Shown here one piece after another: positions 1-13,315 of a stretch of 64,000 nt of DNA; position 1 is the stretch's first letter, and the number at the start of each line of letters is the position of its first letter. Both the position numbers and the translations under genes were made by a program. Location of the stretch: the NCBI GenBank assembly GCA_964394185.1, contig CAYMWM010000003.1, forward strand, positions 1,193 to 65,192. The letters run 5' to 3'. The notes beneath the pieces were generated by a model that saw only the letters and a list, made by a program, of their open reading frames with translations, was not told the DNA's origin and made no database searches. The stretch is from an uncultured Smithella sp. (GTDB lineage: Bacteria > Desulfobacterota > Syntrophia > Syntrophales > Smithellaceae).

Positions 1-467
1 ATAATGGCCCGGTCAAGTATGGTCCGGTAAAAATTGAAGACCATGTTTGGCTGCCATGGAGAGTCTTTGTTCTGCCGGGAGTCACTATTGGCAGGCGTTC
101 CATTATAGGGGCAAATTCAACCGTTATCAATTCTATTCCCGCTTATACGATGGCGGCAGGTTGTCCCGCAAAGATTATGAAGTCAGGAGTTAATTTGGAA
201 ATGAGTCCTGAGGAGTTTAGAAAAAGAGTGGAAATTATTTTCTCGGAATATGAAAAATATTGTTTGAGGCTGGATGCAAGTGTACCCAAAGTTTTCCCTG
301 GTAATGCCTGTTTCTACAGATCTCATCTTGGTGAAAAACCACTGGCAACGGCTTTGATAAATATAGATATGAGCAATTATACTTGCCAGGCCGAAAAAGG
401 TATTGATCCATCAAACTTTTTGATGTTTTTGGTTAAATATGGGATTCGATTGGAGAGAATAAAATAA
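1..467 (+). CDS. Hexapeptide-repeat (left-handed beta-helix) sugar/acyl acetyltransferase, 5' end outside window
   Basis: Frame 3 is open from the window edge and runs into tracked ORF 150-467. The translation ...VWLPWRVFVLPGVTIGRRSIIGANSTVINSIPAYTMAAGCPAKI shows the hexapeptide periodicity of WbbJ/Maa-type acetyltransferases, followed by a ~95-aa non-repeat tail. Confidence 0.7.
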   Translation, partial: NGPVKYGPVKIEDHVWLPWRVFVLPGVTIGRRSIIGANSTVINSIPAYTMAAGCPAKIMKSGVNLEMSPEEFRKRVEIIFSEYEKYCLRLDASVPKVFPGNACFYRSHLGEKPLATALINIDMSNYTCQAEKGIDPSNFLMFLVKYGIRLERIK

Positions 468-574: not shown

Positions 575-2236
575 ATGAAATTATCAGAATCATCTTCCCA
601 CAATACCGAATTACCTCAAACCGGATATTGTCGAAGAACAAGTTTGTTATCTGGCAGATTTAATGTCTTTGACCTGTTGGCAATAATCATCTGCCTGGCG
701 AGTTTTCTATGCAGTTTAACTGAATCGATTGTCAATAATGACAATCATCACTGGGGTGCCGCATATGTTGTGGCATTAGATTTGCGTAGAGGTGCTATCC
801 CATATTCAGAGGTGATTATCTTCTATGGATATCTGACAACCTGGCTTCACAGTGTCTCCTTGACACTTTTGGGAGAAAGGTTATTGAGTATCGGAGTTAT
901 CACGGGGTTATTCTATTCTTTTACATTATTTTTTTCATATCTGATTTTTCTCCGGTTTTTGAGAAAAAATATGGCGTTTTTTTCCCTACTGCTGCTTTTT
1001 CTGATTCATCCTTATATTATTTATCCGGGGCCTAATTACCTGGTTTATACTTTTCATCTGCTGGCATTGATTTTTTTTCTGCGATATCCCAAGGGGCGTT
1101 ATAATGGTTTACTTGCGGGATTTTTTCTGTGTCTGGCATTTCTTGCGCGTTTTACTTCCTTACAAGCAATTCTTCCTCCATTTGCCATCCTTCTTTTGTG
1201 TGATTTTTTTGCCGCCAAAGGAGAGAAGAAAAAAGCTATAGAAAAAATCTTCATAATCATTTCCGGCTTTATTATTCCGTTAACGTTGTTTCTTGCATAT
1301 CTTTTTATGAATTCAGCACTAAGTGCTTTCTTTTATGAAAATAAGATGCTCGCCATTACATGGGGAGGCATTGGAGATACCGATGTTTATTTAAATTTTT
1401 TAGCCTCCATACTTCAGATCGTGCCAAGTTATGCGTCTGATTTGCGTGGCAAACTTTTTACCATAATTTTGTTCGTCTGTTTATTGATCATAGTGAGGGA
1501 AGCCATCAGGAAAATATCCGGCGATTTTACGAAGTCGGTTTATGCCAACTACGATATCATGGCGGTATGCCTTGTTGCAATTTTCGGATATCTTAATTCC
1601 ATACATGTTTATGAAACCGCCCGGCTGGTTAATGGTGCGGCTTTAGGTGTCGGCATATGCACACTTCTTTTTTATGACTTATTTATGAAATTCCCAAAAC
1701 CTTTAAAATATATGCTGGTTTTGTTGGTTATCGGGCTGGTTCTGTTTTTATCATCCTCACTCTTTTTTGTAAGAACCACATCGGCTTATTACCCATGGAG
1801 ATCTGATGTTTTACTCCACAATGGCGTGTCTAATAAAACCATCGGAATATTTAAAGGCAAAATTTTGACTGAAGAGTTCAATAATTTTTATCAGGAAGCG
1901 TATGATGCAATCGCGCCTTTTAAAGAACATTGTGTCATTATCAATTACACACCTGATTGTGTGGCTTTGATTATGAATGACCTGCCGCGTGTCCAAATTT
2001 CCCCCATGCACTTTTCCTGGCTGGAAGACATGACCAAACAGGCAAAATTAATTGATGAATATAAGGCCGTCGTCCTTTCCTACAAACCGCTGGACTTCCC
2101 GGGTTATAATAATATTTTTAAAAAACAGTGGCCGGATGAGATACCGTGGTTAGGTGGAGGATATTTATTTATCTATGCGCCAAAGCAATATTCAGACAAT
2201 AAAAAAGATCTTCCTGTTCCCGTTGGTAAAAAGTAA
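575..2236 (+). CDS. Polytopic membrane protein, GT-C fold (ArnT/PMT-like) glycosyltransferase candidate with ~150-aa soluble C-terminal domain
   Basis: 553-aa ORF with roughly a dozen hydrophobic helices over the first ~400 aa and a hydrophilic C-terminus. It sits among glycosylation genes. The function is inferred from architecture and context only. Confidence 0.5.
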   Translation: MKLSESSSHNTELPQTGYCRRTSLLSGRFNVFDLLAIIICLASFLCSLTESIVNNDNHHWGAAYVVALDLRRGAIPYSEVIIFYGYLTTWLHSVSLTLLGERLLSIGVITGLFYSFTLFFSYLIFLRFLRKNMAFFSLLLLFLIHPYIIYPGPNYLVYTFHLLALIFFLRYPKGRYNGLLAGFFLCLAFLARFTSLQAILPPFAILLLCDFFAAKGEKKKAIEKIFIIISGFIIPLTLFLAYLFMNSALSAFFYENKMLAITWGGIGDTDVYLNFLASILQIVPSYASDLRGKLFTIILFVCLLIIVREAIRKISGDFTKSVYANYDIMAVCLVAIFGYLNSIHVYETARLVNGAALGVGICTLLFYDLFMKFPKPLKYMLVLLVIGLVLFLSSSLFFVRTTSAYYPWRSDVLLHNGVSNKTIGIFKGKILTEEFNNFYQEAYDAIAPFKEHCVIINYTPDCVALIMNDLPRVQISPMHFSWLEDMTKQAKLIDEYKAVVLSYKPLDFPGYNNIFKKQWPDEIPWLGGGYLFIYAPKQYSDNKKDLPVPVGKK

Positions 2237-2272
2237 TTATATTATTACAAAAATAGAGGCGCTTATTTTTTG

Positions 2273-3691
2273 ATGTCGAAGATATTATTAATTAAACCCA
2301 GATTTCTTGCCCCCGATTTCAAGACGATAACGCAGCCAATGGGACTGATGTATATCGCTGCCGCGTTGAAGCAGGTTGGCCATCAACCGAAAATTTACGA
2401 CTACTGCGGTGATCATAAAGACCTTCGTGCACTCAAGAATATCATTGCCGGGTGGAAACCTGATTTCATCGGCATCAGCATCATTGTAACCGAATTGGAG
2501 AATACAAAGGGAATTATGGAAATGATACGCCATCTGCTGCCGGACATTCCCGTGACATTCGGTGGGCCTTGGCCTTCGGTAAATCCGCAGGAAGCCATCG
2601 AGACCTTCGGCGCAGATTTTGTGGTTATCGGTGAAGGGGAACATGTATTTCCGGAACTGGTGGATGTGATAAACAAAGGACGTTCCCCAGAATCCGTCGG
2701 TGGAGTTGCATCCCTGGTCAAAGGAGAGGTGAAAATCAATCCGGGACGGACATTGACAGAAGAAGAACTGAATGCCCTTCCATTTCCGGCCTGGGACCTG
2801 CTGGATCACAGCCTGTACACGAAAATGCCTTCGGGAGCCGGTGTCGGATGCCGGCCCTATATGGCCATTGTCACTTCCCGCGGCTGTCCTTTCAGGTGTG
2901 CCTACTGCCACCGGACGATGGGCAAAGTTTTTAGAAAGAGGACAGCTCACTCGGTACTGGTGGAGATGGAAGAGCTTCACTTTAAGCACGGCTTCAGGGA
3001 GTTTGAGATTGTCGATGATTGTTTTAATCTGGACCGTGAAAGAATGTACGCAATTCTTAATGGCATTCGGGATAGACTTCCCTATGTTAAACTTCATTTC
3101 GGAAACGGTCTGCGGGCTGACATCCTTGAACCCGAAGACATGAAACTTTTCAGGCAGGCGGGGACTGTTTCTGCCGGTTTTGGCATAGAGACATCCAGCC
3201 CGCGGCTGCAAAAGATGATTCACAAGAATCTGAATATTAATAAGGCGGTTATTGCTATCAACGCGGCTGTCAAGGCCGGAATTTACACGTCCGGTTTCTT
3301 TATGTTCGGATTTCCGACAGAGTCTTACGAAGAGGCTTCTGCCACCGTTGAGTTTGCCGTTTGCTCCTCCCTGCACCGTGCATCATTCATGCTGGTTACA
3401 CCATTTAGCGGGACCGAACTTGCCGAAATGGCTGCGGACATCCTTAAAAACAGAAATGATGCAATTGACCCGAGAAAAATGACCTTTTTTACCAGCACAC
3501 TCAATGTTTCGGCAATGACGAACAGCGATTTACAGAAGGTTTTTCGGCAGGCCTACAGACGCTTTTATCTGAATCCCAAAAGATTATGGAATCTGGTCAT
3601 TAATCATCCGTATATCCTTTCGCTCCCGTGGTATGCGTTTATTGTATTGATCAATGCTCTGCCAATAAGGCGAAACCACACTGATTCATAG
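2273..3691 (+). CDS. Cobalamin-binding-domain (class B) radical SAM enzyme, paralogue 1 of 3
   Basis: N-terminal B12-like Rossmann segment (LLIKPRF..MGLMYIAAALKQVGHQPKIYDY) and the radical SAM motif SRGCPFRCAYCH (CxxxCxxC). The ATG at 2273 follows the TTG at 2270 used in the track. Confidence 0.9.
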   Translation: MSKILLIKPRFLAPDFKTITQPMGLMYIAAALKQVGHQPKIYDYCGDHKDLRALKNIIAGWKPDFIGISIIVTELENTKGIMEMIRHLLPDIPVTFGGPWPSVNPQEAIETFGADFVVIGEGEHVFPELVDVINKGRSPESVGGVASLVKGEVKINPGRTLTEEELNALPFPAWDLLDHSLYTKMPSGAGVGCRPYMAIVTSRGCPFRCAYCHRTMGKVFRKRTAHSVLVEMEELHFKHGFREFEIVDDCFNLDRERMYAILNGIRDRLPYVKLHFGNGLRADILEPEDMKLFRQAGTVSAGFGIETSSPRLQKMIHKNLNINKAVIAINAAVKAGIYTSGFFMFGFPTESYEEASATVEFAVCSSLHRASFMLVTPFSGTELAEMAADILKNRNDAIDPRKMTFFTSTLNVSAMTNSDLQKVFRQAYRRFYLNPKRLWNLVINHPYILSLPWYAFIVLINALPIRRNHTDS

Positions 3692-3785
3692 ATGTGAATG
3701 TCCTTCCTGGATCAATTGATGCATGCCATTAATGATCATAAACAAGTTACCCGATTTAAGAAAATATTTTCAGCTTAATATTACT

Positions 3786-3816
3786 TTGACACGCCTAATC
3801 ATTGTATATATATAAT
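3786..3816 (+). promoter_or_regulatory. Sigma70-like promoter candidate (TTGACA, then TATATA at 17 nt or TATAAT at 19 nt)
   Basis: TTGACA at 3786-3791, TATATA at 3809-3814 and TATAAT at 3811-3816. This places a predicted start within a few nt of the ATG at 3823. The surrounding DNA is AT-rich, so a chance match is possible. Confidence 0.3.
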
Positions 3817-3822
3817 TTTGCT

Positions 3823-5571
3823 ATGAAGGGGGAATATCTTATCGAGCAAAGCACAAAGGGCAGCACCTCTCCGGGAAAAAACAGTTACCTCGTGCTTTCC
3901 CTGGTGTTGTTCATGACGGCCCTCGTTTTTTCCGGCAGCATGAAGCTGGACTGGACTAACTGGGACGATGATTTGTACGTCTACAAAAATCCGGTTGTCA
4001 GAGAAGGAACGCTTAAAGAGGTTTTCACGACGTCTGGCGATTATAATATGTATGTCCCTCTGGTGATAGCGTCTTTCGCTCTGGAATGGAAACTGGTACA
4101 GGATAAACCTTTTCTTTATCACCTTGATAATTTGTTGCTGCATCTTTTCTGCACGGCGCTTGTGTTGCTGTTTTTTCGCAGGTTAGGGCTATCCGTTTGG
4201 TGGAGCGGGTTTGCCGCCATGCTTTTTGGCATCCATCCAATGCGGGTGGAAACAGTCGCGTGGGTTACCGAACGCAAGGAACTGCTCTGTACAGTCTTCT
4301 ATTTGGCATCACTGCTCTCTTATCTCCGCTATATAGATTCCGGCAAAATAAGGCATATGTTGATTTCCGGTCTTTTTTTTGCGCTCTCTATATTTTCTAA
4401 AACGGTGGCTCTGACACTGCCTTTCATCCTGGTGCTGCTGGACTGGTATTTTCGAAGAAAGTTTTGTCCGAAAGTTATCTTCGAGAAAATATTCTTTATT
4501 ATCGTAACCGTTGGCATAATGCTACCGCAATATTTTATTTTCAGTAAAACCAATCCCCCCAGTACCAGCCCTCAGGCAATCATGAATGCTTTTAATTATT
4601 TTGAACAAGCAGTCCTGGGTTGTTATGTTTATGCCATCTACATGCTGAAGTCCGTTATTCCATATACGTTGTCCGCGATGTATCCCATACCTGCTGCGCT
4701 TCGGACGGAGCACTGGATAGGCGCGGCCGTTGCCATATTTGCCGTCGGTGGCACACTAGCCAGGGCGCGCAAGGACAGATTTGCTGCCTTCGGTCTACTA
4801 TTCTTTTCTTTTAATATTGGTCTGCTCATTCTAGTTTCATTTTACCTGAGCGATTTTGCCTTCCTTAATGATCATTATTCCTATATCGCCTATATTGGCC
4901 TGTTCTTCGTCATTGCCTTGAGTCTGCAACGATTAACGGTTGAAATTTCTCCTGTCAGGATACCCGTGACGGGTTTTGCCGTTGGTCTGCTGGTCGTTTT
5001 GAGTTTTGTGACGATGAAATATATTCCCGTCTGGAAAAACAGCGAAACTCTCTGGACGCACGTTATTGAAAAATATCCGCGTCAATTTGCGACGGCTTAT
5101 TTAAACAGAGGCCACTACTGGTACGAAAACAATCGGCCGGACAAAGCACTGGAAGATTACAGCGCGGCAATCAAAATTAAAACGGCTTTTCCTGAGGCTC
5201 TGAAGAATCGGGCACTCATCTATCTGATAAAAAACGACTTGCCGAAAGCTCTTCAGGATTATAACCGATATCTTGAATTTATGCAGTCTTGCGATAATGG
5301 CAACAAAAGTGCCGAGCCCCGTATTTCCGATGCATTGGGCAACAGGGGGTTGATATATTACAGAATGGGACAATACTCCAAAGCGTTGATTGATTTGGAT
5401 TTGGCCATAAAACTCAATCCGTCGAATCCCACCAATTATTTCAACCGGGCTTCCGTCTATCAGAAAATCGGCCGCATCGCGGAAGCAAAAAGAGATGTAA
5501 GAAGAATCAGGCAAATGGGAGTCATCATTGATCCTGCGTTTGAAAAATTACTGAAGCTTAGCACGAAATGA
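3823..5571 (+). CDS. TMTC-like membrane glycosyltransferase (GT-C/PMT_2-type N-terminal domain) with C-terminal TPR repeats
   Basis: About 10 TM helices, then TPR-like repeats (YLNRGHYWYENNRPDKALEDYSAAIKI.., LGNRGLIYYRMGQYSKALIDLDLAIKLNP.., YFNRASVYQKIGRIAEA). The track ORF starts at 3802, but 3823 (MKGEY) lies just downstream of the promoter-like motif. Confidence 0.75.
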   Translation: MKGEYLIEQSTKGSTSPGKNSYLVLSLVLFMTALVFSGSMKLDWTNWDDDLYVYKNPVVREGTLKEVFTTSGDYNMYVPLVIASFALEWKLVQDKPFLYHLDNLLLHLFCTALVLLFFRRLGLSVWWSGFAAMLFGIHPMRVETVAWVTERKELLCTVFYLASLLSYLRYIDSGKIRHMLISGLFFALSIFSKTVALTLPFILVLLDWYFRRKFCPKVIFEKIFFIIVTVGIMLPQYFIFSKTNPPSTSPQAIMNAFNYFEQAVLGCYVYAIYMLKSVIPYTLSAMYPIPAALRTEHWIGAAVAIFAVGGTLARARKDRFAAFGLLFFSFNIGLLILVSFYLSDFAFLNDHYSYIAYIGLFFVIALSLQRLTVEISPVRIPVTGFAVGLLVVLSFVTMKYIPVWKNSETLWTHVIEKYPRQFATAYLNRGHYWYENNRPDKALEDYSAAIKIKTAFPEALKNRALIYLIKNDLPKALQDYNRYLEFMQSCDNGNKSAEPRISDALGNRGLIYYRMGQYSKALIDLDLAIKLNPSNPTNYFNRASVYQKIGRIAEAKRDVRRIRQMGVIIDPAFEKLLKLSTK

Positions 5572-6287
5572 TCATGGAAAAACTTTACATTGTAATGCCG
5601 GCCTATAACGAAGAAAATACAATAGCGACGGTTGTCGACGAATGGCATGCCGTTGCCGAAATGGTCGGCCATGGCAGTAAACTTGTCGTATTCAATGACG
5701 GCAGTAAGGACAGCACAGCAGGTATATTAGAAAAAATAAAAAATAAATATCCCCATCTCGTGATCATCAACAAAAAAAACTCCGGACACGGGCCAACATG
5801 CAGGCTTGCATATCAATATGCTGTTGATGAAAAAGCGGATTGGGTTTTTCAAACGGATTCCGATGGCCAGACAAAATCAGGTGAATTCGGGAATTTCTGG
5901 GAAAAAAGAAATCAATATGATTTTATTATCGGTCATCGCGTGAAACGGTCCGACAGCGTGGACCGGAGATTCATTTCACAAATTCTCAAACGGGTGCTGT
6001 TTATGATATTCAAGGTTACAGTGGCCGATGCCAACACTCCTTTCCGTTTGATGAAGGCTGAACGTCTGCGATATTATTTGCCATTAATTCCCAATGATTA
6101 TTTTCTATGTAACACGCTATTATCGGTACTGATTACAAAAAATAAGGAAAGAATTTTTTGGCAGGAGATTTCCTTTGCCCCGAGACTTTCCGGAATATCA
6201 TCAATTCCTCTGGCAAAATTCAGCAAACTGGCAATTAAATTGATACCGGAATTATATAAAATGAGAGACCTGAATCTTCCAAAATGA
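5568..6287 (+). CDS. Family 2 glycosyltransferase, Dpm1/ArnC-like polyprenyl-phosphate sugar synthase candidate
   Basis: IVMPAYNEENTI.. followed by FNDGSKDST and a DSDGQ motif, which is typical GT2 (GT-A) sequence. The start overlaps the previous stop (ATGA). Confidence 0.85.
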   Translation: MIMEKLYIVMPAYNEENTIATVVDEWHAVAEMVGHGSKLVVFNDGSKDSTAGILEKIKNKYPHLVIINKKNSGHGPTCRLAYQYAVDEKADWVFQTDSDGQTKSGEFGNFWEKRNQYDFIIGHRVKRSDSVDRRFISQILKRVLFMIFKVTVADANTPFRLMKAERLRYYLPLIPNDYFLCNTLLSVLITKNKERIFWQEISFAPRLSGISSIPLAKFSKLAIKLIPELYKMRDLNLPK

Positions 6288-7657
6288 AAATTGCACTGGT
6301 AAGACCCAATTACAGAAGCCATATCATAACGCCTCCGCTGGGGCTGGGTTATCTTTCCGCTTATCTGAAAAAGCACGGCATAAGCACTGTTATAATCGAC
6401 GGTCTGAAAGAAAATCTGAATTTACGCAGGATGATTAAAAGACTTCATGATTTGAAACCCGATGCCGTGGCCATCACCTGTCTTACCGCTTTTTACCAAC
6501 AAACCGTATTATTGTCGCGGGAACTTAAAAAAAATGGAATGACAACCATTATAGGTGGTCCGCATCCCACTTTTTTGCCCTACCAAACATTGGTTGAATC
6601 ACAGGCTGATTATGTCATCTGCGGAGAGGGAGAAATTCCACTTCTCGGTTTAATTAGGAACAATTTCTGCAATGATAATATTCAGGGTGTCTATTCCCTG
6701 GATAATCTAAAAGATGAAGGGCAGGCTGTTATAAAAGCAAAAATCGTGGAGAAACTGGATGTTTTACCCTTTCCCGATTGGGAGCAGATGAATCCTCATG
6801 ATTATCCTAAAGCCCCGCATGGCGCTATCATCAGGGGATTCCCGGTCGGTGTCATAGTGACCAGCCGCGGTTGTCCTTACGAGTGCACATTTTGCGCCGC
6901 GCCAAAATTTTGTGACAGAAAAATAAGATTCAGAACTCCTGAAAACGTTGTTGAGGAAATCGAGTATCTGATAAAGAATTTTAAAATCAGAGAAATCCAT
7001 TTTGAAGATGATAGTCTGACTTTCAATGCAGATAATGTAAAAAAGCTCTGCCGTTTATTGATAGAAAGAAAAATTAAAATTAATTGGGCTTGCCCCAATG
7101 GAATACGAGCGGATAATATCAGCCCGGAAATAATTCAATTAATGAAAAACAGCGGATGCTATTATTTCGCCTATGGCGTTGAATCCGCCAATCCTCAGAT
7201 TTTAAAAAAAATCAAGAAAAAGGAATCCATAGAAACCATTGAAAAAGCGATTGAGATGGCGGACAGGGCGGGAATATCCACTCAGGGATTTTTTATTTTT
7301 GGTCTGCCAGGAGAGACCAAAGAAACCATTGAAGAGAACATAAATTTTGCTCTGAGGTCAAGACTGTCGCGCGCTCAATTTATTATCCTCGATGTTTTAC
7401 CTGGTTCGGAATTATGGGACACCCTCAAGGGGGAATTTATTCCTAACTGGGAAAAGGAAAGTTACAGAGAACCGGAATGGCTGCCGGAGGGAATGACTAA
7501 AGATCAGTTGCTTGCGGCGCAGACGAGAGCCTTTAAAAAATTTTATTTAAGGCCGAAAATATTTCTTGAATTATTAAAATTAGTCGATCACAGACAAATT
7601 TCTTACCTCATTAGAAGATTTAAGATTTATGGATTAATAAAAAAAAGAACAATCTGA
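6284..7657 (+). CDS. Cobalamin-binding-domain (class B) radical SAM enzyme, divergent from the three close paralogues
   Basis: N-terminal B12-like domain (MKIALVRPNY..LGLGYLSAYLKKHGI) and SRGCPYECTFCA (CxxxCxxC). ATGA overlap with the upstream GT2 gene. Confidence 0.9.
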   Translation: MKIALVRPNYRSHIITPPLGLGYLSAYLKKHGISTVIIDGLKENLNLRRMIKRLHDLKPDAVAITCLTAFYQQTVLLSRELKKNGMTTIIGGPHPTFLPYQTLVESQADYVICGEGEIPLLGLIRNNFCNDNIQGVYSLDNLKDEGQAVIKAKIVEKLDVLPFPDWEQMNPHDYPKAPHGAIIRGFPVGVIVTSRGCPYECTFCAAPKFCDRKIRFRTPENVVEEIEYLIKNFKIREIHFEDDSLTFNADNVKKLCRLLIERKIKINWACPNGIRADNISPEIIQLMKNSGCYYFAYGVESANPQILKKIKKKESIETIEKAIEMADRAGISTQGFFIFGLPGETKETIEENINFALRSRLSRAQFIILDVLPGSELWDTLKGEFIPNWEKESYREPEWLPEGMTKDQLLAAQTRAFKKFYLRPKIFLELLKLVDHRQISYLIRRFKIYGLIKKRTI

Positions 7658-7809
7658 AAAATATGTCAATCACTTGTTTTATTATCAGGATTTGCTTTTA
7701 TTAACATCTGCGTATAAAATTTAAGCTTACCGCAAATGAACAGGTAAAAATAGTTCCAATTGCATGTGAGCTAATTTCTGCAAAAAGTTAAGGAGAATCT
7801 TTTGTATTC

Positions 7810-8865
7810 ATGAAAACAGCAATAAAAATGTTACAAGGGCTTATCCATGCCAAATACTTTTCCGCGCCATTCTATATGCATCTTTATGTTACGGAAAGGT
7901 GCAATCTCCAATGCAAAATGTGCAATATCTGGCAAAGAAAATCAAAAGATATGACTATGAAGGAAATAGAGCAGTACGCAGAAATCATGAAAGCGTTGAA
8001 AGTGCCCAATATAGTCGTAACCGGAGGAGAACCATTTCTTCATCCGGATATAATTGAAATTGTTAAATTATTGAATTTTTATGGATTTTCTTTAAGGCTA
8101 CAAACGAATGGAATTCTGGTTACAGAAGAAAAAATCAATGCCCTTGCCAAAGCCGGATTAAAAAATATTACTCTCTCACTGGATACACTGGATGAAGAAA
8201 AATTTGACTGGATTTGCAACTCAACAAGTCTTGTTCATAAAGTTGAAAAATCACTGGACATAGTGACCAAAAACATCGATGGTTTTGTTGTTGTTAATAC
8301 TGCCGTATCAAAAATTAATATTTCTGATCTGCCGATAATTGTTGAATTCGTTAATTCGAAAGGAGCCTACTCTTCCCTCATGCCTGTGCATCTGCGGCCG
8401 GACGAAAACATTCCTCACTTTTGTTACGGGTTTTGTAAAGAAATGCTTTTTTCGAAAAAGGATATTTCTGAAATAGAGAAATCCTATACTGAAATTTTGA
8501 GAATGAAGAAGAATGGATATAGAATAATTAATTCCAAAAAATATTTAGAGGCTTCTCTTGAATATTTAAGGACAGGCAATTATGCATGGAATTGTAGGGC
8601 CGGCGAAAGATTTTTTGTTGTGTATGCCGATGGCGGGATTGCTCCCTGTGACGCATTTCCTCCTTTATTCAATATAAAATCAAATTTCCCGGATCAATTC
8701 AGAAATCCCGAATATCGTGAAGGCGTCAGGCGCATAAGAGAGGGATGCAATGGCTGCATGTCGGCCTGTTGGCGCGAAACAAACCTGCTTATTGATGATT
8801 TTTCCACCAAGATGGAGCAAATGAGGCTTTATCTTAGAAAAATAACAGGCACCCATCATAAATAA
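7810..8865 (+). CDS. Radical SAM enzyme with C-terminal Cys-rich (SPASM/twitch-like) extension
   Basis: VTERCNLQCKMCN (CxxxCxxC), a GGEPF motif, and C-terminal CRAGERFFVVYADGGIAPCD plus CNGCMSACW. RBS AAGGAGAA lies upstream. Confidence 0.8.
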   Translation: MKTAIKMLQGLIHAKYFSAPFYMHLYVTERCNLQCKMCNIWQRKSKDMTMKEIEQYAEIMKALKVPNIVVTGGEPFLHPDIIEIVKLLNFYGFSLRLQTNGILVTEEKINALAKAGLKNITLSLDTLDEEKFDWICNSTSLVHKVEKSLDIVTKNIDGFVVVNTAVSKINISDLPIIVEFVNSKGAYSSLMPVHLRPDENIPHFCYGFCKEMLFSKKDISEIEKSYTEILRMKKNGYRIINSKKYLEASLEYLRTGNYAWNCRAGERFFVVYADGGIAPCDAFPPLFNIKSNFPDQFRNPEYREGVRRIREGCNGCMSACWRETNLLIDDFSTKMEQMRLYLRKITGTHHK

Positions 8866-8950
8866 ACAAGTTATATCTGGAAAAAGCTTAAATAATTTTC
8901 AAAGGTAAAACATCTCATCAAAAACGAAACAAGAAATAGACAATTGAAAT

Positions 8951-10198
8951 ATGACTGCAGAAATCCTTAAACATACGAAAAGTCTTTCGCCTCTTACTTT
9001 GAAAACAATTGATGCAAAAATCATTTTCGACGGCGAAAATGTTTGTATGGTTAAAAAGGATGAAGAAGGAAATGAATATAAATCCTTGATTGAAAAAGAT
9101 AAGGAACTATATCTGCTTTTTACAAGATTAACCGGTGACGCTTCTGTAAAAACGAAATTTATCTCCACTTATGCATCATCAAAATGCAACTTGAATTGTC
9201 AAGTATGTTATGAAAAATCGGGTAATAACAAGGAGATTAGCCTTGAAGAGATAAAAGAATTGTCGAAGAAATACAATAACTGCAGAATGGGCGTGACGGG
9301 AATGGAGCCTACCTGCAGAGAAGATATCTTTGACCTCATGGAAATCGTACGACATAATCACAGCCTTGTTACCAACGGGATAAAATTGGCATCTCTCGAA
9401 TATGTTCAAAAATTAAAACGCCATGGTTTAACAAGACTTTGTTTTTCTCTTAATGGCTTTGATGATGAAATTTACCGGAAAATAAATGGTGAAAATCTTC
9501 TTGATACAAAATTGAACGCACTTAAAAATATTGAGCTTGAAAAAATCGATACCCTGCTCTCGGCGACAATAGCAAGGGACATTAATGAAGATCAAATTCT
9601 GCCTTTGGTTGAATTTTGTTTTGAGCACCGTTCTTTTATCATTGGGCTTAGAATAAGAACAATGGTTCAAACTGGAAAATATCTGGATATAGAGCAAATG
9701 TGCATGTCCGAATTAATAGAACTGATTGCGGATTCACTGAATATCAACAAAACGGATATTATCAACGAATTCTGCTTTATTCAGGCATTTATCGAAAAAT
9801 TCAGTAAGATTCTGCCACAGGGGTTTAAGGATCATTACGGTTCCAAACTGTGCAGTTTTATTTTTAATATCCGGGAAAATGGCAACGGGAAATATTATTC
9901 CCCCGGTATTCATATTGACATAAATAGAATAAACAGGAGCATGTTCAAATCGGCTTATTTGTTTTATTATCTGTTTAAGGCATACGGTCCGTCATTATTA
10001 TTGGAAACGGTTCTGCATGTCCTGAATTTGCGCCGGTTTGTTGTGCAGAAAAATATCCTTAATATTTCTCTCAAATGCTGGCCTAATCTTTATAATATTG
10101 ATTTAGAGGAAATGGATAAATGCCCGCATGTATATTACAGAAATGGAGAAATGGAGAAATTCTGTATTTCCAATATTAAGAATTCTATGAAGAAATAA
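8951..10198 (+). CDS. Radical SAM enzyme, COG1964/Tes-like architecture (tentative)
   Basis: SSKCNLNCQVCYE (CxxxCxxC), TGMEPT, TNGIKL and CFSLNGFDDEIY..NG.. segments, preceded by a ~75-aa N-terminal domain. The family assignment comes from remembered motif patterns only. Confidence 0.7.
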   Translation: MTAEILKHTKSLSPLTLKTIDAKIIFDGENVCMVKKDEEGNEYKSLIEKDKELYLLFTRLTGDASVKTKFISTYASSKCNLNCQVCYEKSGNNKEISLEEIKELSKKYNNCRMGVTGMEPTCREDIFDLMEIVRHNHSLVTNGIKLASLEYVQKLKRHGLTRLCFSLNGFDDEIYRKINGENLLDTKLNALKNIELEKIDTLLSATIARDINEDQILPLVEFCFEHRSFIIGLRIRTMVQTGKYLDIEQMCMSELIELIADSLNINKTDIINEFCFIQAFIEKFSKILPQGFKDHYGSKLCSFIFNIRENGNGKYYSPGIHIDINRINRSMFKSAYLFYYLFKAYGPSLLLETVLHVLNLRRFVVQKNILNISLKCWPNLYNIDLEEMDKCPHVYYRNGEMEKFCISNIKNSMKK

Positions 10199-10334
10199 AT
10201 GTGAAAATAGAAAGATATTTAGATATAGATATTGAACATCAATCCTATTTGTTAACTCAGGGATAAGAATATATTTTTTGTAATAATTTCAATTTAAATT
10301 TATTGGCAGGGCTAAAATAAGGATTTTCATTCTA

Positions 10335-11747
10335 ATGTTGAAAATATTGCTGATAAAACCACAATTCTTTCTCTCTGAATCTCAGATGATTATGCAGCCG
10401 GTGGGGCTGATGTATATTGCTGCTGCATTAAAAAATGCCGGACATGAACCGAAGATTTATGACTATTGCAGCGACCATAGAGACCTACGTTTTCTCAAGA
10501 AAATTATCACCGGTTGGAAACCGGACTTTATCGGCATTAGCATCATTGTCACTGAGTTGGAGAACACAAAAAGAATCATGGGGATGATACGTCATCTGCT
10601 TCCGGATGTGCCTGTGACATTCGGCGGGCCATGGCCTTCGGTAAATCCTCGGGAAGCCATTAAGACTTTTGGCGCGGACTTCGTCGTTATAGGTGAAGGG
10701 GAGTATGTATTTCCCGAACTGATAAATGCCATAAATCATGGTCGGCCAACTGAATCCATACCGGGAATGGCATCTGAGGTTAATGGACAGATAAAAATCA
10801 ATTTGAGACAGCCATTAACCGAAGATGAACTGAATACCCTTCCGTTTCCGGCATGGGAACTTCTGGATCACAGTCTTTATGAGAAAAGGCCTTCAGGGGC
10901 CAGTGTCGGCTGCAGGCGGTACATGACAATCGTCACTTCTCGCGGCTGTCCTTTCAAATGTGTATACTGTCATCGGACATTGGGTAAGGTTTTTAGAAAG
11001 AGGACAACCGAGTCGGTCTTGTCTGAAATGGAAGAGCTCCGTTTCATACATGGATTCAGGGAATTTGAAATCGTTGATGATTGTTTCAATCTGGACCATG
11101 AAAGAATGTATGCAATTCTAACCGGCATTCGGGACCGGCTGGGCGATGTTAAACTGCATTTCCCAAATGGCCTGCGGGCAGACATACTTGAACCGGAAGA
11201 CATGAAACTTTTCAAACAGGCGGGGACCGTATCTGCCTGCTTCGCCATAGAAACACCCATCCCGAGGCTGCAAAAGATGATTCAAAAGAATTTGAATATC
11301 GATAAGGCAATGCTTGCTGTCAATGCGGCTGTAAAAGCCGGAATATACTCTTCCGGTTTCTTTATGATTGGATTCCCGACAGAGTCGTATGAGGAGGCTT
11401 CTGCTACCGTTGAATTTGCAGTCCGCTCCTCCCTGCACCGTGCATCATTCTATCTGGTTACACCATTTGCCGGGACCGAACTTGCAGAAATGGCTGCGGA
11501 TATTCTTAAGAACAGGCATGACAACATTAACCCGAGTTCAATGACCTTTTTTTCCAGCACGATTAATGTTTCGGCAATGCCGGACAGAGAATTACAGACA
11601 GTTTTTCGACGTGCTTACAGGCGCTTTTATATGAATCCCAAAAGACTATGGAATCTGCTCATTTATCATCCGCAAGTCTTTTCACTCCCAAGGTATGCGA
11701 TGTCCATGATGATCAGGACTCTGCCATTCAGGCGTTATACCGCCTGA
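10335..11747 (+). CDS. Cobalamin-binding-domain (class B) radical SAM enzyme, paralogue 2 of 3
   Basis: Collinear with 2273-3691 along its whole length, with long identical peptide runs such as WKPDFIGISIIVTELENTK and SYEEASATVEFAV. Motif SRGCPFKCVYCH. Confidence 0.9.
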   Translation: MLKILLIKPQFFLSESQMIMQPVGLMYIAAALKNAGHEPKIYDYCSDHRDLRFLKKIITGWKPDFIGISIIVTELENTKRIMGMIRHLLPDVPVTFGGPWPSVNPREAIKTFGADFVVIGEGEYVFPELINAINHGRPTESIPGMASEVNGQIKINLRQPLTEDELNTLPFPAWELLDHSLYEKRPSGASVGCRRYMTIVTSRGCPFKCVYCHRTLGKVFRKRTTESVLSEMEELRFIHGFREFEIVDDCFNLDHERMYAILTGIRDRLGDVKLHFPNGLRADILEPEDMKLFKQAGTVSACFAIETPIPRLQKMIQKNLNIDKAMLAVNAAVKAGIYSSGFFMIGFPTESYEEASATVEFAVRSSLHRASFYLVTPFAGTELAEMAADILKNRHDNINPSSMTFFSSTINVSAMPDRELQTVFRRAYRRFYMNPKRLWNLLIYHPQVFSLPRYAMSMMIRTLPFRRYTA

Positions 11748-11902
11748 TTAAAAAAATTAATTTTATGTAAGTATGCTATGCATTAATTCAGTTTAATGTT
11801 ATCAAGGCTGTAAATAAAATATTCATGAGACTCGTAACAATTTTTATGAATTTACGCAAAATGAAATAGCATTATTTAATTAAAGGAGGAGCTTTCTTTT
11901 CA

Positions 11903-13315
11903 ATGTCCAGGGTCCTGCTGATAAAACCCAGATTCCTTTTTCCGGTTTTTCTGTCCATAACGCACCCGATGGGACTTATGTATCTCGGAGCCGTACTCAA
12001 GATGGCCGGACATGAAACGAGAATTCACGACTGTGCCCTCGACGATAAAGATCTTCATATACTCAAACAGATAATTCAAGAATGGAAACCTGACTATATA
12101 GGCATCAGTGTTATTATTACCGAGCTGGAGATCACAAAAAGAATCGCGAAAATGATCCGTGAGATAATGCCTGATATTCCCATTATTTTCGGCGGTTCCT
12201 GGCCATCGGCCAATCCTGAAAAGGCAATCAAGACTTTCGGAGCTGATTTTGTTGTTCTGGGAGAAGGAGAACATGTGTTTCCGGGACTGATTAATGCCTT
12301 AAATAATGGCCGTTCCACTGAATCCATTCGGGGAATTGCTTCACTGGTTAACGGTCTTTTAAAAATTAATCAGGGGCGTTACCTGAGCGAGACCGAACTT
12401 GACGCTCTGCCGTTTCCTGCATGGGAACTCCTCGATCACAAACTCTACGCAAGAATGGATTCATTTGCCGTCATCGGCCGCAGGCCTTATATGACGATAT
12501 TCACTTCACGTGGCTGCCCATATAAGTGCGCTTACTGCCACAGGACGATGGGCAAGATCATCAGAAATAGATCGGCGGAGTCTGTTATTTCAGAAATGGA
12601 AGAACTTCGTTTCAAATATGGATTTAAAGAATTTGAGATTGTTGATGATTGTTTCAACTTTGATCGAAAAAGGATGTGCGTAATTCTCACTGGTATCAGA
12701 GACAGACTTGGTGATGCCAGATTGCATTTTCCGAACGGTTTAAGATCCGATATGCTCGAGCCGGAAGACATGACTCTTTTCAAGCAGGCAGGAACTGTTT
12801 CCGCCCATTTTGCCATTGAAACGTCCAGCCCGCGTCTGCAAAAGATGATTCACAAGAATTTGAATGTTGAAAAAGCCGTGAAGGTCATTCATGCGGCTGT
12901 CAAAGCGGGCATTTATTCGACCGGATTCTTCATGATCGGTTTCCCGACGGAAACTTATGAAGAGGCTTCCTCCACAGTGGAATTTGCCATCAATTTGCCT
13001 CTGCATAGAGCTTTCTTCTTTAATCCCGTACCATTTCCCGGAACAAAACTGGCTGAAATGGTTTCAGATGTATCTGAGAAAATAGATTGTGATTTCGATA
13101 TATACGATGCAAACTTTTTTACCAGAATAACCAACATTTCGGCTATGTCGGATGATGATTTACAAAGAATTTTCCGGCGAGCATATAGGCGCTTTTATCT
13201 GAATCCGAAAAGAATAATAAGACTGGTGGGCCATCATCCGAGCATTCTATCGCTTCCGTTTTATGCGTATCTGTTTTTAATCAGGATTTGGTCGAGGAAG
13301 CGAAGATCTCCCTGA
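11903..13315 (+). CDS. Cobalamin-binding-domain (class B) radical SAM enzyme, paralogue 3 of 3
   Basis: Same length class and collinear with 10335-11747. Motif SRGCPYKCAYCH. RBS AAAGGAGGAG lies upstream. Confidence 0.9.
   Translation: MSRVLLIKPRFLFPVFLSITHPMGLMYLGAVLKMAGHETRIHDCALDDKDLHILKQIIQEWKPDYIGISVIITELEITKRIAKMIREIMPDIPIIFGGSWPSANPEKAIKTFGADFVVLGEGEHVFPGLINALNNGRSTESIRGIASLVNGLLKINQGRYLSETELDALPFPAWELLDHKLYARMDSFAVIGRRPYMTIFTSRGCPYKCAYCHRTMGKIIRNRSAESVISEMEELRFKYGFKEFEIVDDCFNFDRKRMCVILTGIRDRLGDARLHFPNGLRSDMLEPEDMTLFKQAGTVSAHFAIETSSPRLQKMIHKNLNVEKAVKVIHAAVKAGIYSTGFFMIGFPTETYEEASSTVEFAINLPLHRAFFFNPVPFPGTKLAEMVSDVSEKIDCDFDIYDANFFTRITNISAMSDDDLQRIFRRAYRRFYLNPKRIIRLVGHHPSILSLPFYAYLFLIRIWSRKRRSP

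What the first reader, a model, noticed from the sequence alone, without database searches (positions are those of the whole stretch)
2273..13315. Six radical SAM genes (four with cobalamin-binding domains) embedded in a glycosylation island
Within 11 kb there are class B radical SAM genes at 2273, 6284, 10335 and 11903, a SPASM/twitch-like radical SAM gene at 7810 and another radical SAM gene at 8951. They are interleaved with a GT-C/TPR membrane glycosyltransferase and a Dpm1-like GT2. More GT-C-like proteins, GDP-heptose genes, an epimerase, a flavoprotein and a methyltransferase flank them. I found no convincing short precursor-peptide ORF in any intergenic gap (468-574, 3692-3822, 7658-7809, 8866-8950, 10199-10334, 11748-11902, 13316-13480). 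A RiPP cluster is therefore unlikely. Class B enzymes typically methylate or rearrange unactivated carbons. This number of them in a glycan or lipid-linked pathway implies heavy C-methylation or C-C chemistry on a sugar, polyprenyl or lipid moiety. I do not recognise that combination from characterised loci.
Basis: partly seen in the sequence, partly recalled or inferred. Interest (0 to 1): 0.75.

Follow-up and report, generated by a model that had tools for sequence, protein, structure and literature searches.

The report
Radical-SAM-tailored membrane glycosylation island
A low-GC gene island of an uncultured Syntrophales-type bacterium packs six radical-SAM enzymes, one of them a shortened relative of the archaeal tetraether-lipid synthase, next to membrane glycosyltransferases, and this conserved combination has no characterised counterpart.

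Summary
Six intact radical SAM (rSAM) genes lie on the + strand within 11 kb. Four have an N-terminal B12-binding domain; three of these (2270, 10335, 11903) are close paralogues and 6284 is a separate family. One (7810) is twitch/SPASM-like. The last (8951) is a full-length structural homologue of the archaeal tetraether synthase Tes/GDGT-MAS, a "mini-Tes".

They are interleaved with a TMTC-like GT-C/TPR protein, a Dpm1/ArnC-like GT2 and two further polytopic membrane proteins. Sugar-activation genes follow.

The core order is syntenic in another Syntrophaceae MAG. Sub-modules recur in many Syntrophales contigs and, in other combinations, in other phyla. No gap holds a conserved small ORF, and no rSAM reaches the cut-off of any curated functional family. 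RiPP and housekeeping readings are therefore disfavoured.

The best reading (about 0.4) is inferred from context. The rSAM set tailors a polyprenyl-phosphate-linked sugar donor or glycolipid at the cytoplasmic face, and the GT-C enzymes then use it in the periplasm. Rivals are nucleotide-sugar tailoring and tailoring of a lipid tail as in archaeal GDGT modification.

I rate it a new variant of known kinds, with interest about 0.65.

The parts
3..467 (+). C-terminal part of a hexapeptide-repeat (LbH) acyltransferase; the gene runs off the window start
   Evidence: The frame is open to base 3. Full-length 288-312-aa orthologues with a weak Hexapep hit sit at the same place in L002, L007 and L061.
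575..2236 (+). 553-aa polytopic membrane protein (about 10-11 TM plus a C-terminal soluble part), probable PMT_2/GT-C-like transferase
   Evidence: Hydropathy. No Pfam hit of its own. Its 60%-identical L007 orthologue hits PMT_2 at E 3e-5, 24.7 bits against gathering score 26.1. It lies upstream of an A-family rSAM in L007 and L061.
2270..3691 (+). rSAM 'A': cobalamin-domain radical SAM, A-family paralogue 1 (ATG at 2273)
   Evidence: B12-binding 1.5e-22 and Radical_SAM 3.4e-19. CxxxCxxC present; 77.5% identical to E and 65% to F. C-terminal hydrophobic segment at 448-466.
3802..5571 (+). TMTC-like GT-C membrane glycosyltransferase with C-terminal TPR domain (public gene call starts at 3823)
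   Evidence: TPR families strong, PMT_2 weak (E 1.3e-3). Invariant NWDD in loop 1 and HPxRVExVAWxxERK. AF2 model pLDDT 88, all-helical TM bundle plus TPR. Directly follows an A-family rSAM in the window, L002, L007 and L061.
5568..6287 (+). Soluble 239-aa GT2, Dpm1/ArnC/PpgS/AglJ-like (polyprenyl-phosphate sugar synthase type)
   Evidence: Glycos_transf_2 3e-14. Best NCBIfam hits are ArnC, PgfS, PpgS and AglJ, all below cut-off. 65% orthologue at the same position in L007.
6284..7657 (+). rSAM 'B': cobalamin-domain radical SAM of a second family
   Evidence: Radical_SAM 6.8e-29 and B12-binding 1.7e-18. About 30% identical to A, E and F. Best PDB match is MgmA/QCMT 9CCB, E 8e-22. 75% orthologue in L007.
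7810..8865 (+). rSAM 'C': MoaA/Tes-core-like radical SAM with a twitch/partial-SPASM C-terminal cysteine set
   Evidence: Radical_SAM 5.9e-28; SPASM 0.0059 and DUF3463 0.0025, both sub-threshold. Cys at 262, 280, 313, 316 and 320. 72% orthologue in L007.
8951..10198 (+). rSAM 'D': 'mini-Tes', a 415-aa full-length homologue of archaeal tetraether synthase Tes/GDGT-MAS that lacks its N-terminal cluster domain
   Evidence: AF2 pLDDT 92.7. Foldseek 7tol E 1.6e-28, TMq 0.79; next best 0.43 or less. Family profile against 7tol gives E 4.6e-67 over residues 6-417. NCBIfam Tes 84 bits against cut-off 450.
10335..11747 (+). rSAM 'E': A-family paralogue 2
   Evidence: B12-binding 2.7e-24 and Radical_SAM 5.4e-18. 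More than 120 clusters at 65-85% identity, named Syntrophaceae or Smithella where named.
11903..13315 (+). rSAM 'F': A-family paralogue 3
   Evidence: B12-binding 4.5e-25 and Radical_SAM 8.9e-21. 63-65% identical to A and E.
13481..14890 (+). 469-aa polytopic membrane protein (11-13 TM); GT-C-like or Wzy-like, unassigned
   Evidence: Hydropathy. No Pfam, NCBIfam or PDB hit. A 53% homologue sits downstream of an A-family rSAM in L062.
14912..16234 (+). FAD flavoprotein of the amine-oxidase/PPO/CrtI superfamily
   Evidence: Amino_oxidase 9e-15 and NAD_binding_8 1.6e-13. PRK07208-type 157 bits, below cut-off. A CrtI-family flavoprotein sits in the related Omnitrophota operon L068.
16322..17263 (+). 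SDR NDP-sugar epimerase/4,6-dehydratase
   Evidence: GDP_Man_Dehyd 5e-55 and Epimerase 3e-52. RmlB- and GalE-like, below cut-offs.
17260..19176 (+). Three-domain fusion: sugar-1-P nucleotidyltransferase, GmhB-like HAD phosphatase and P-loop kinase
   Evidence: NTP_transferase 5.5e-41, Hydrolase_like, PRK. GmhB 163.6 bits against 178; HddC 110 against 300.
19173..20162 (+). GHMP sugar kinase, HddA-like
   Evidence: GHMP_kinases_N and _C. HddA 156 bits against cut-off 600.
20207..20776 (+). Small class I SAM methyltransferase (weak)
   Evidence: Methyltransf_11 2.4e-4. A similar 189-aa methyltransferase sits next to a GT2 in L003.
20803..21558 (+). Second short GT2, Dol-P-hexose transferase/AglJ-like
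   Evidence: Glycos_transf_2 6.6e-17. NCBIfam DPhHxTase 50 bits and AglJ 50 bits, below cut-off.
21611..22570 (+). Metallo-beta-lactamase-fold hydrolase at the island's 3' edge
   Evidence: Lactamase_B 3.4e-16. MBL proteins also flank the module in L061 and L067. GC rises from about 0.40 to about 0.49 after 24 kb.

Best explanation
The island encodes an envelope glycosylation system of the 'polyprenyl-phosphate sugar donor plus GT-C transferase' type, to which a radical-SAM tailoring set has been added.

**Proposed course; every step is inferred.**
1. The 16.3-20.2 kb genes make a nucleotide sugar.
2. The short GT2 enzymes (5568, 20803) load a sugar onto polyprenyl phosphate.
3. The six rSAM enzymes tailor this membrane-bound intermediate at the cytoplasmic face:
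   - the three A-family paralogues and B, by cobalamin-dependent C-methylation or rearrangement;
   - C, by twitch-type oxidation, epimerisation or decarboxylation;
   - D, by Tes-like C-C bond formation that uses a C-terminal auxiliary cluster.
4. The LbH acyltransferase, the flavoprotein and the methyltransferase add further modifications.
5. The product is flipped across the membrane.
6. The GT-C proteins (575, 3802 and perhaps 13481) transfer it to a periplasmic acceptor. The periplasmic TPR domain of 3802 points to a protein acceptor, as in TMTC/PMT O-mannosylation.

Duplication of the A-family next to each GT-C-like gene suggests one tailored donor per transferase, or iterative methylation.
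For: **Shown by tools.**
- Domain content and intact cluster motifs of all six rSAMs.
- A-family rSAM and the 3802-type GT-C/TPR gene are immediate neighbours in four independent contigs: the window, L002, L007 and L061. The LbH and 575-type genes lie upstream.
- The full order LbH - 575 - A - A - GT-C/TPR - GT2 - B - C - D - D is conserved at 53-75% identity in Syntrophaceae MAG L007.
- Hits from the three family searches repeatedly report the same longest-contig length. Examples are 4631, 6470, 9258, 7764, 8349, 9264 and 26014 bp for A with GT-C, and 4984, 7397, 7827, 10370, 12450 and 27846 bp for A with D. I take this as a proxy for linkage within a few kb.
- L064 holds a compact module: GT2 plus PMT_2, then 2 B12-rSAMs, a mini-Tes and a TPP enzyme. 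Housekeeping genes flank it and it has no nucleotide-sugar genes.
- L065 has a PMT_2 fused to a GtrA flippase domain beside a mini-Tes.
- 3802 has the TMTC hallmarks: a DD motif in the first loop, an HP motif, about 11 TM and a C-terminal TPR (features from PMC7801869).
- D matches Tes over its full length and keeps three Cys columns of the Tes C-terminal domain.
- The window's 23 kb hold no Wzx, no ABC exporter and no initiating phosphoglycosyltransferase. A Wzy-like role for the unassigned 13481 protein is not excluded.

**From the literature.**
- Tes binds isoprenoid lipids in hydrophobic pockets. It uses the C-terminal cluster to hold the first radical (PMC13459092).
- rSAM enzymes that act on a lipid-bound sugar exist: HpnJ and Cds.

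**Inference.** rSAM enzymes need cytoplasmic reductant and SAM, while GT-C catalysis is periplasmic. The lipid-linked donor is the simplest object that both could share.
Against: - No substrate, product or activity is shown.
- The GT-C fold of 3802 was not confirmed. The Foldseek output was filled with TPR matches, PMT_2 is below the gathering score, and profile comparisons with PMT_2 proteins were insignificant.
- 13481 has no detectable family.
- No GtrA-type flippase was found in the window.
- The rSAMs have no predicted membrane segment, apart from a weak C-terminal hydrophobic stretch in A.
- Partners of the mini-Tes in other phyla fit tailoring of an isoprenoid or alkyl chain as well as tailoring of a sugar. 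These partners are a CrtI-family flavoprotein, a CMAS/GPP-C-methyltransferase-like methyltransferase and an ALS-like TPP enzyme.
- In L003 the A-family sits with methyltransferases, AsnB and a TPP enzyme, and no GT-C lies within 10 kb.
Confidence: 0.4

Rival explanations
1. Nucleotide-sugar tailoring. The rSAM enzymes work in the cytosol on NDP-activated sugars made by the 16.3-20.2 kb genes. They make C-methyl, branched-chain, deoxy or epimerised sugars, as GenK, AprD4, BtrN and DesII do in aminoglycoside and macrolide pathways. Ordinary glycosyltransferases then incorporate these sugars.
For: - Sugar-activation genes are in the same island.
- AprD4 (6fd2) is among the best PDB sequence matches of A/E/F and B.
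- BlsE and DesII appear among the structural and sequence matches of C and D.
- An ALS-like TPP enzyme accompanies the mini-Tes in other lineages. From my own knowledge, this is the enzyme type of the branched-sugar synthase YerE.
- None of the rSAMs is predicted to be membrane-integral.
Against: - The rSAM genes are interleaved with the GT-C and GT2 genes, not with the sugar-nucleotide genes.
- The compact L064 module has rSAMs, GT2 and GT-C but no sugar-nucleotide genes.
- D's only close structural relative binds lipids.
- All similarities to sugar-acting rSAMs are weak core matches.
Confidence: 0.2
2. Lipid-tail tailoring, a bacterial counterpart of the archaeal GDGT toolkit (Tes, Gms, Grs, Gmm). 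The mini-Tes couples hydrocarbon chains, and the B12-rSAMs methylate unactivated carbons of an alkyl or isoprenoid chain. The chain could belong to a membrane-spanning or branched lipid, a glycolipid anchor or the polyprenol itself. The glycosyltransferases only add head groups.
For: - D is a full-length Tes homologue that retains the C-terminal Cys triad.
- In archaea, gms, grs and a B12-rSAM methylase (gmm) are neighbours (PMC13459092).
- The top NCBIfam hit of A and E is the ladderane-lipid B12-rSAM model; HpnJ and HpnR also hit. All are below cut-off.
- Recurrent partners elsewhere include a CrtI-family flavoprotein and a CMAS/GPP-C-methyltransferase-like methyltransferase.
- L062 carries PlsY, ketoacyl-synthase, dehydratase and thioesterase genes about 5 kb from an A-family gene.
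- Bacterial Tes homologues, including some in Desulfobacterota, are known bioinformatically but are untested (PMC11868695).
Against: - The window's island has no fatty-acid, ether-lipid (Ger/PlsA) or Mss genes.
- The context is a variable, low-GC, glycan-type island.
- D lacks two of the four Tes metal sites and scores 84 against 450 bits on the Tes model.
- The TPP carboligase partner has no obvious role on a hydrocarbon chain.
Confidence: 0.2
3. Peptide or protein modification. The rSAM enzymes modify a ribosomal peptide or a surface protein encoded elsewhere, perhaps the very glycoprotein that the GT-C enzymes glycosylate. Under this reading the TPR domain recognises that protein substrate.
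For: - The nearest solved structure to A/E/F and B is MgmA/QCMT, which methylates a protein.
- ApyD and RiPP C-methyltransferase models are among the weak NCBIfam hits.
- SPASM/twitch enzymes are often peptide maturases.
Against: - No precursor-like ORF lies in any gap, and none is conserved across loci.
- The small genes in related loci are a GT2 remnant and an ACP.
- No peptidase, leader-recognition or exporter gene was seen.
- In a TMTC-type topology the TPR domain would be periplasmic, away from the cytoplasmic rSAMs (PMC7801869).
Confidence: 0.07
4. Accidental clustering of housekeeping rSAM genes (MoaA, BchE/HemN-like and the like) in a glycan island.
For: Automatic annotations of homologues read 'BchE', 'YgiQ' or 'MoaA'.
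Against: - Every hit is far below its curated cut-off. Examples are BchE 133-177 against 481 bits and MoaA 104 against 284 bits.
- Order and content are conserved in L007.
- Three of the genes are paralogues.
Confidence: 0.02

Closest known systems
Tetraether synthase Tes / GDGT-MAS (MJ0619, PDB 7TOL)
   Same: - D (8951-10198) shares the fold over its whole length: TMq 0.79 and profile E 4.6e-67.
- It shares the rSAM cluster motif.
- Three Cys columns of the C-terminal domain are shared. In Tes that domain holds the auxiliary cluster used for C(sp3)-C(sp3) coupling.
   Different: - D is about 85-110 residues shorter than Tes.
- It lacks the N-terminal [4Fe-4S] motif.
- It has lost the Cys/His ligands of the rubredoxin-like ribbon.
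- It scores 84 bits against the 450-bit Tes cut-off.
- It is bacterial and sits among glycosyltransferases, not lipid genes.
Three-component periplasmic glycosylation systems (GtrA/GtrB/GtrC, ArnC/ArnT, Ppm1/PMT type); named from my own knowledge
   Same: - A short GT2 of the polyprenyl-phosphate sugar synthase type lies next to polytopic GT-C-like proteins.
- A related locus has PMT_2 fused to a GtrA domain.
   Different: - No flippase gene was found in the window.
- No known system of this kind has radical SAM enzymes, let alone six.
TMTC1-4 / PMT protein O-mannosyltransferases (GT-C)
   Same: 3802 has a cytoplasmic N-terminus, a DD motif in the first extracytoplasmic loop, an HP motif, about 11 TM helices and a C-terminal TPR domain (PMC7801869).
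   Different: - No DUF1736 hit, and PMT_2 is below the gathering score.
- It is bacterial.
- The acceptor is unknown.
HpnI/HpnK/HpnJ (hopanoid cyclitol ether) and calditol synthase Cds
   Same: They are precedents for a glycosyltransferase followed by an rSAM enzyme that remodels the sugar while it is attached to a lipid. HpnJ carries a B12-binding domain (PMC13459092).
   Different: - HpnJ model scores are 115-150 bits against a 578-bit cut-off.
- The island has no hopanoid or GDGT genes.
- Those systems use one rSAM, not six.
Cobalamin-dependent rSAM methylases of lipids and proteins (Gmm, HpnP/HpnR, MgmA/QCMT 9CCB)
   Same: A/E/F and B share the compact architecture of about 450-470 aa with B12 and rSAM domains. 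MgmA is their best solved relative.
   Different: - Matches are remote (E 1e-13 to 8e-22, under 30% identity).
- No curated family cut-off is met.
- Methylase activity, as opposed to rearrangement, is not established.

Membership tests
Class B (cobalamin-dependent) radical SAM | N-terminal B12-binding domain followed by a radical SAM core with CxxxCxxC | tested here: met
   A, B, E and F hit PF02310 (E 1e-18 to 1e-25) and PF04055, and the motif is present.
Class B (cobalamin-dependent) radical SAM | Membership of a characterised subfamily (BchE, HpnJ, HpnR, MgmA, PhpK, ladderane, ApyD, TsrM) | tested here: not met
   The best hits reach 133-177 bits against cut-offs of 360-750 bits.
Class B (cobalamin-dependent) radical SAM | Cobalamin binding and methyl transfer to an unactivated carbon | not testable with these tools
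   This needs biochemistry.
SPASM/twitch radical SAM | C-terminal auxiliary-cluster cysteine motif (CX9-15GX4C ... CX2CX5CX3C) | tested here: inconclusive
   C has C262-X17-C280 with GG, and C313-X2-C316-X3-C320. Pfam SPASM scores 17.3 bits against a 21.5-bit cut-off.
Tetraether synthase Tes/GDGT-MAS | Full-length fold and sequence-profile similarity | tested here: met
   Foldseek 7tol E 1.6e-28, TMq 0.79. Profile E 4.6e-67 over D 6-417.
Tetraether synthase Tes/GDGT-MAS | C-terminal auxiliary [4Fe-4S] cluster ligands | tested here: met
   C301, C391 and C405 are near-invariant in the family and align with Tes Cys columns. That these are the ligands is inferred.
Tetraether synthase Tes/GDGT-MAS | N-terminal [4Fe-4S] domain and rubredoxin-like Fe site (3Cys+His each) | tested here: not met
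   D has a single CX3CX2C motif. The ribbon Cys are replaced (TKSLSP...), although distant family members keep them (Tes domains).
Tetraether synthase Tes/GDGT-MAS | Curated family score (NF045702) | tested here: not met
   84 bits against a cut-off of 450.
Tetraether synthase Tes/GDGT-MAS | Couples terminal carbons of two lipid chains | not testable with these tools
   This needs lipid assays.
GT-C glycosyltransferase, TMTC/PMT type (3802-5571) | Polytopic N-terminal domain with an acidic DD/DE motif in the first extracytoplasmic loop | tested here: met
   W54-D55-D56 are invariant in 32 homologues. The AF2 model shows a helical bundle.
GT-C glycosyltransferase, TMTC/PMT type (3802-5571) | C-terminal TPR domain | tested here: met
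   TPR_1 7e-25 and others. Foldseek matches OGT and CTPR structures.
GT-C glycosyltransferase, TMTC/PMT type (3802-5571) | Significant match to a GT-C family model or solved GT-C structure | tested here: inconclusive
   - PMT_2 scores 19.4 bits against 26.1.
- 6 of 32 relatives hit PMT_2 at E up to 0.01.
- No PDB sequence hit.
- hhalign probability is below 1%.
- The Foldseek list was swamped by TPR matches.
- No DUF1736 hit.
GT-C glycosyltransferase (575-2236 and 13481-14890) | Match to a GT-C family model | tested here: inconclusive
   For 575, only its L007 orthologue hits PMT_2, at E 3e-5. For 13481 there is none; a 23%-identical relative hits at E 1e-3.
Three-component periplasmic glycosylation system | Polyprenyl-phosphate sugar synthase GT2, flippase and GT-C transferase together | tested here: inconclusive
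   A GT2 of the ArnC/PpgS/AglJ type (below cut-offs) and a GT-C-like gene are adjacent. No GtrA-type gene is in the window. A GtrA-PMT_2 fusion occurs in L065.
RiPP biosynthetic cluster | Precursor peptide gene near the maturases, conserved across loci | tested here: not met
   No gap ORF exceeds about 30 aa, and none is conserved by blastn or tblastx. Small genes in relatives are a GT2 remnant and an ACP.
GDP-D-glycero-D-manno-heptose pathway | GmhA, HddA, GmhB and HddC | tested here: inconclusive
   HddA-like scores 156 against 600 bits, HddC-like 110 against 300 and GmhB 164 against 178. No SIS-domain GmhA is in the island.

The most novel reading that the evidence does not exclude
The mini-Tes and the B12-rSAM array are the bacterial counterpart of the archaeal GDGT-tailoring toolkit. 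They would carry out radical C-C coupling and C-methylation on the isoprenoid or alkyl part of a membrane-anchored glycoconjugate. Candidates are the polyprenyl carrier itself, a glycolipid anchor, or a branched or membrane-spanning lipid. This would identify Syntrophales of anoxic peat, wetland and digester habitats as makers of an unknown class of radical-tailored lipids. It could also offer candidate enzymes for the still unassigned extra methylations of bacterial branched tetraether-type lipids.
Probability: 0.15. Interest if true: 0.88.

Novelty: new variant of a known kind. Interest (0 to 1): 0.65.

Why it matters
Most class B radical SAM enzymes have no known function. Bacterial relatives of the tetraether synthase have been detected only by bioinformatics.

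This locus gives both a concrete, conserved genetic context: a GT-C-based envelope glycosylation module in Syntrophales, key syntrophs of methanogenic habitats.

If the rSAM set tailors a lipid-linked sugar donor, that would be a new layer of bacterial glycan diversification: radical C-methylation or C-C chemistry at the polyprenyl-phosphate stage. If it acts on the lipid part, it bears on who makes branched or cross-linked lipids in anoxic environments and with which enzymes.

Either way the compact modules are small enough for heterologous expression. L064 has seven genes and the window's core has about ten.

Tried and rejected
**GT-C fold tests.**
- Foldseek of the full-length 3802 model returned only TPR matches in the listed top 50, so the TM-domain fold stayed untested.
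- Profile searches of the 3802 TM domain, the 575 family and the 13481 family against PDB sequences found nothing.
- hhalign against a small PMT_2 alignment was insignificant.

**Signals in the DNA.**
- The promoter/terminator scan was not above shuffles (66 against 55.5 +/- 7.9) and gave no operon boundaries.
- Rfam found no riboswitch, cobalamin or other, and no other RNA.

**Wider searches.**
- The genome-contig scan with protein E returned only two close loci, because it depends on exact peptide patterns.
- Literature searches for B12-rSAM with glycosyltransferase, O-antigen or Syntrophales context found no description of such a locus.
- The TrsS search was uninformative.

**Ideas dropped.**
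- The 105-aa ORF at 150-467 as a candidate precursor. It is the tail of an acyltransferase.
- Orthology subgroups of the A-family tied to the neighbouring membrane gene. The identity matrix is flat at 63-77%.

Full report
**1. The observation**

Bases 1-23,000 form a single + strand run of genes. Their GC content is 0.35-0.45, against 0.45-0.52 for the rest of the window.

Pfam confirms B12-binding plus Radical_SAM in four proteins: 2270/2273-3691 (A), 6284-7657 (B), 10335-11747 (E) and 11903-13315 (F). It confirms Radical_SAM alone in 7810-8865 (C) and 8951-10198 (D). All six carry CxxxCxxC.

A, E and F are paralogues, 63-78% identical. B is only about 30% identical to them.

C has a sub-threshold SPASM/DUF3463 signal. 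Its C-terminus has five cysteines arranged CX17C ... CX2CX3C.

The neighbours are as follows.
- A TPR protein with a weak PMT_2 hit (3802-5571) and a soluble GT2 (5568-6287).
- Two Pfam-less polytopic membrane proteins (575-2236 and 13481-14890).
- A flavoprotein and an SDR epimerase/dehydratase.
- A nucleotidyltransferase/GmhB-like/kinase fusion and a GHMP kinase.
- A weak methyltransferase, a second GT2 and an MBL hydrolase.

The heptose assignment rests on hits below every curated cut-off, and no GmhA is present.

**2. No precursor peptide, and no housekeeping function**

- The gaps are AT-rich. Their longest ORFs are about 30 aa, and only the same genome (L001) matches them by blastn or tblastx.
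- The 105-aa ORF at 150-467 is the end of a hexapeptide acyltransferase that runs off the window start.
- Small genes called in related loci are a truncated GT2 remnant (L002) and an ACP-like protein (L062).
- None of the six rSAMs comes near an NCBIfam equivalog cut-off. Examples are BchE at 177 bits or less against 481, MoaA at 104 against 284 and Tes at 84 against 450.

**3. Conservation**

Protein E has more than 120 cluster representatives at 65-85% identity. Where they are named, the names are Syntrophaceae, Smithella or 'Deltaproteobacteria'. The host is therefore a Syntrophales-type MAG; no name was retrievable.

- **L007.** This Syntrophaceae MAG has the order LbH - 575-type - A - A - GT-C/TPR - GT2 - B - C - D - D, at 53-75% identity.
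- **L061 and L002.** Both have LbH, an A-family gene and GT-C/TPR; L061 also has the 575-type gene. Both add a second unit of B12-rSAM, a 195-aa protein and a 482-aa weak PMT_2 protein.
- **L062.** An A-family gene is followed by an ACP, a 194-aa protein and a 13481-type membrane protein.
- **L005 and L063.** Five to seven B12-rSAM genes stand in tandem beside PMT_2 and TPR membrane proteins.
- **Short contigs.** Hits from the three family searches often report the same longest-contig length, some as small as 4.6-9 kb. I take this as a proxy for tight linkage.
- **Paralogue relationships.** The A-family identity matrix is flat at 63-77%. The paralogues therefore do not sort by neighbouring gene.

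**4. The GT-C/TPR protein**

Its TM domain has an invariant NWDD just after the first TM helix. It also has an invariant HPxRVExVAWxxERK block.

The AF2 model (pLDDT 88) is an all-helical membrane bundle followed by TPR repeats.

These are the published TMTC hallmarks: a DD motif in loop 1, an 'AVHPIHT'-type segment, 11 TM helices and a luminal C-terminal TPR domain (PMC7801869).

Formal family evidence is weak.
- PMT_2 scores 19.4 bits against a gathering score of 26.1, and 6 of 32 relatives hit it.
- There is no PDB sequence hit.
- The Foldseek list was filled by TPR proteins.

For the 575 family, the L007 orthologue hits PMT_2 at E 3e-5. For 13481, nothing convincing was found.

**5. The mini-Tes**

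- D's best PDB sequence match is GDGT-MAS (7tol).
- A 38-sequence alignment gave an AF2 model with pLDDT 92.7.
- The model's top Foldseek hits are 7tol and 7tom: E 1.6e-28, TMq 0.79, 474 aligned columns. No other structure exceeds 0.43.
- The family profile matches 7tol at E 4.6e-67 over D residues 6-417.

Tes has four metal sites: a rubredoxin-like Fe, an N-terminal cluster, the rSAM cluster and a C-terminal cluster. The C-terminal cluster is proposed to hold the first substrate radical during C(sp3)-C(sp3) coupling (PMC13459092).

D keeps the rSAM motif. It also keeps three near-invariant Cys (301, 391, 405) that align with Tes Cys columns in the C-terminal domain. It lacks the N-terminal cluster motif, and in this clade it has lost the ribbon Cys.

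The short Tes-like family is large: 1033 clusters at 50% identity score E <= 1e-30.

**6. Context of the mini-Tes elsewhere**

- **L064.** GT2 and PMT_2, then two B12-rSAMs, a mini-Tes and an ALS-like TPP enzyme, flanked by housekeeping genes.
- **L065.** A GtrA-PMT_2 fusion, a polysaccharide deacetylase, a CMAS-type methyltransferase, a mini-Tes and a TPP enzyme.
- **L003/L004.** A SPASM rSAM, a mini-Tes, a TPP enzyme, a CMAS-type methyltransferase, an A-family gene and further B12-rSAMs.
- **L068 (Omnitrophota).** Three B12-rSAMs, two mini-Tes, a CrtI-family flavoprotein, a methyltransferase, a TPP enzyme and a sulfatase/rSAM fusion.
- **L067.** A mini-Tes, a SPASM rSAM, a B12-rSAM and a TPR/MBL protein.

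The rSAM trio of B12 type, SPASM type and mini-Tes is therefore a recurrent toolkit. It is often, but not always, next to GT2 and GT-C genes.

**7. Mechanism (inferred)**

rSAM enzymes need cytoplasmic SAM and reductant, whereas GT-C enzymes act on the outer face of the membrane with polyprenyl-phosphate-linked donors. Their tight and repeated adjacency is most simply explained if they share the lipid-linked donor or glycolipid.

Under this model the donor is made by the short GT2. The rSAM set, the acyltransferase, the flavoprotein and the methyltransferase tailor it. It is then flipped and transferred.

Precedents for rSAM chemistry on a lipid-bound sugar are HpnJ and Cds. A Tes-type fold is built to hold isoprenoid lipids.

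I give this model 0.4. The rivals are:
- nucleotide-sugar tailoring, 0.2;
- lipid-tail tailoring in the manner of the archaeal GDGT toolkit, 0.2;
- peptide or protein modification, 0.07;
- accidental clustering, 0.02.

**8. Novelty**

In the held literature I found no description of rSAM enzymes within a GT-C or three-component glycosylation system, nor of this Syntrophales island. Bacterial Tes homologues are reported only from genome screens (PMC11868695).

The parts belong to known superfamilies. The combination and the short Tes-like family in this context are uncharacterised. I therefore rate it 'new variant of a known kind', with interest 0.65.

Noticed in passing
window 23773-56203: Downstream of a TetR gene there is a long + strand run of genes:
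- acyl-CoA dehydrogenases;
- at least four pairs of HGD-D family proteins (2-hydroxyacyl-CoA dehydratase / benzoyl-CoA-reductase-like);
- two proteins of about 436 aa with ferredoxin domains;
- a GMC oxidoreductase, a thiolase-like protein and an acyl-CoA ligase.

It looks like a paralogue-rich aromatic or alicyclic acyl-CoA pathway.
   Followed up: partly
window 1-23000 against 24000-64000: The island's GC is 0.35-0.45 and the rest of the window is 0.45-0.52. This fits a horizontally exchanged or hypervariable surface-glycan locus.
   Followed up: no
L003 6112-9895; L064 10001-12966; L065 8816-12966; L066 7613-12180; L068 9111-12990: In several phyla the mini-Tes gene abuts or overlaps a 565-580-aa acetolactate-synthase-like TPP enzyme. 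A CMAS/GPP-C-methyltransferase-like methyltransferase is usually alongside. This conserved triad is absent from the window itself.
   Followed up: partly
L068 12987-14600: An Omnitrophota gene fuses an N-terminal sulfatase-family domain to a BchE/PhpK-like radical SAM region. It lies directly after the TPP enzyme.
   Followed up: no
L063 10001-21259 and L005 10001-17738: Seven (L063) and five (L005) B12-binding radical SAM genes stand head-to-tail. Upstream are a PMT_2 protein, a TPR membrane protein, an ATP-grasp protein and an epimerase.
   Followed up: partly
L002 13314-13430: The 38-aa gene called after the GT-C/TPR gene is the N-terminal remnant of the Dpm1-like GT2, 71% identical to window 5574-5675. 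The GT2 is therefore truncated or lost in that genome.
   Followed up: yes
L062 3774-4590 and 10973-13719: An ACP-like 75-aa protein and a 194-aa protein follow the A-family rSAM. PlsY, dehydratase, thioesterase and ketoacyl-synthase genes lie about 5 kb away.
   Followed up: no
window 59290-61404: A 704-aa protein with DUF5018 repeats, probably a surface protein, lies outside the island. It was not examined as a possible glycosylation acceptor.
   Followed up: no
window 1-64000: No Rfam family reaches its gathering score anywhere in the 64 kb. That includes tRNA, riboswitches and cobalamin elements.
   Followed up: yes
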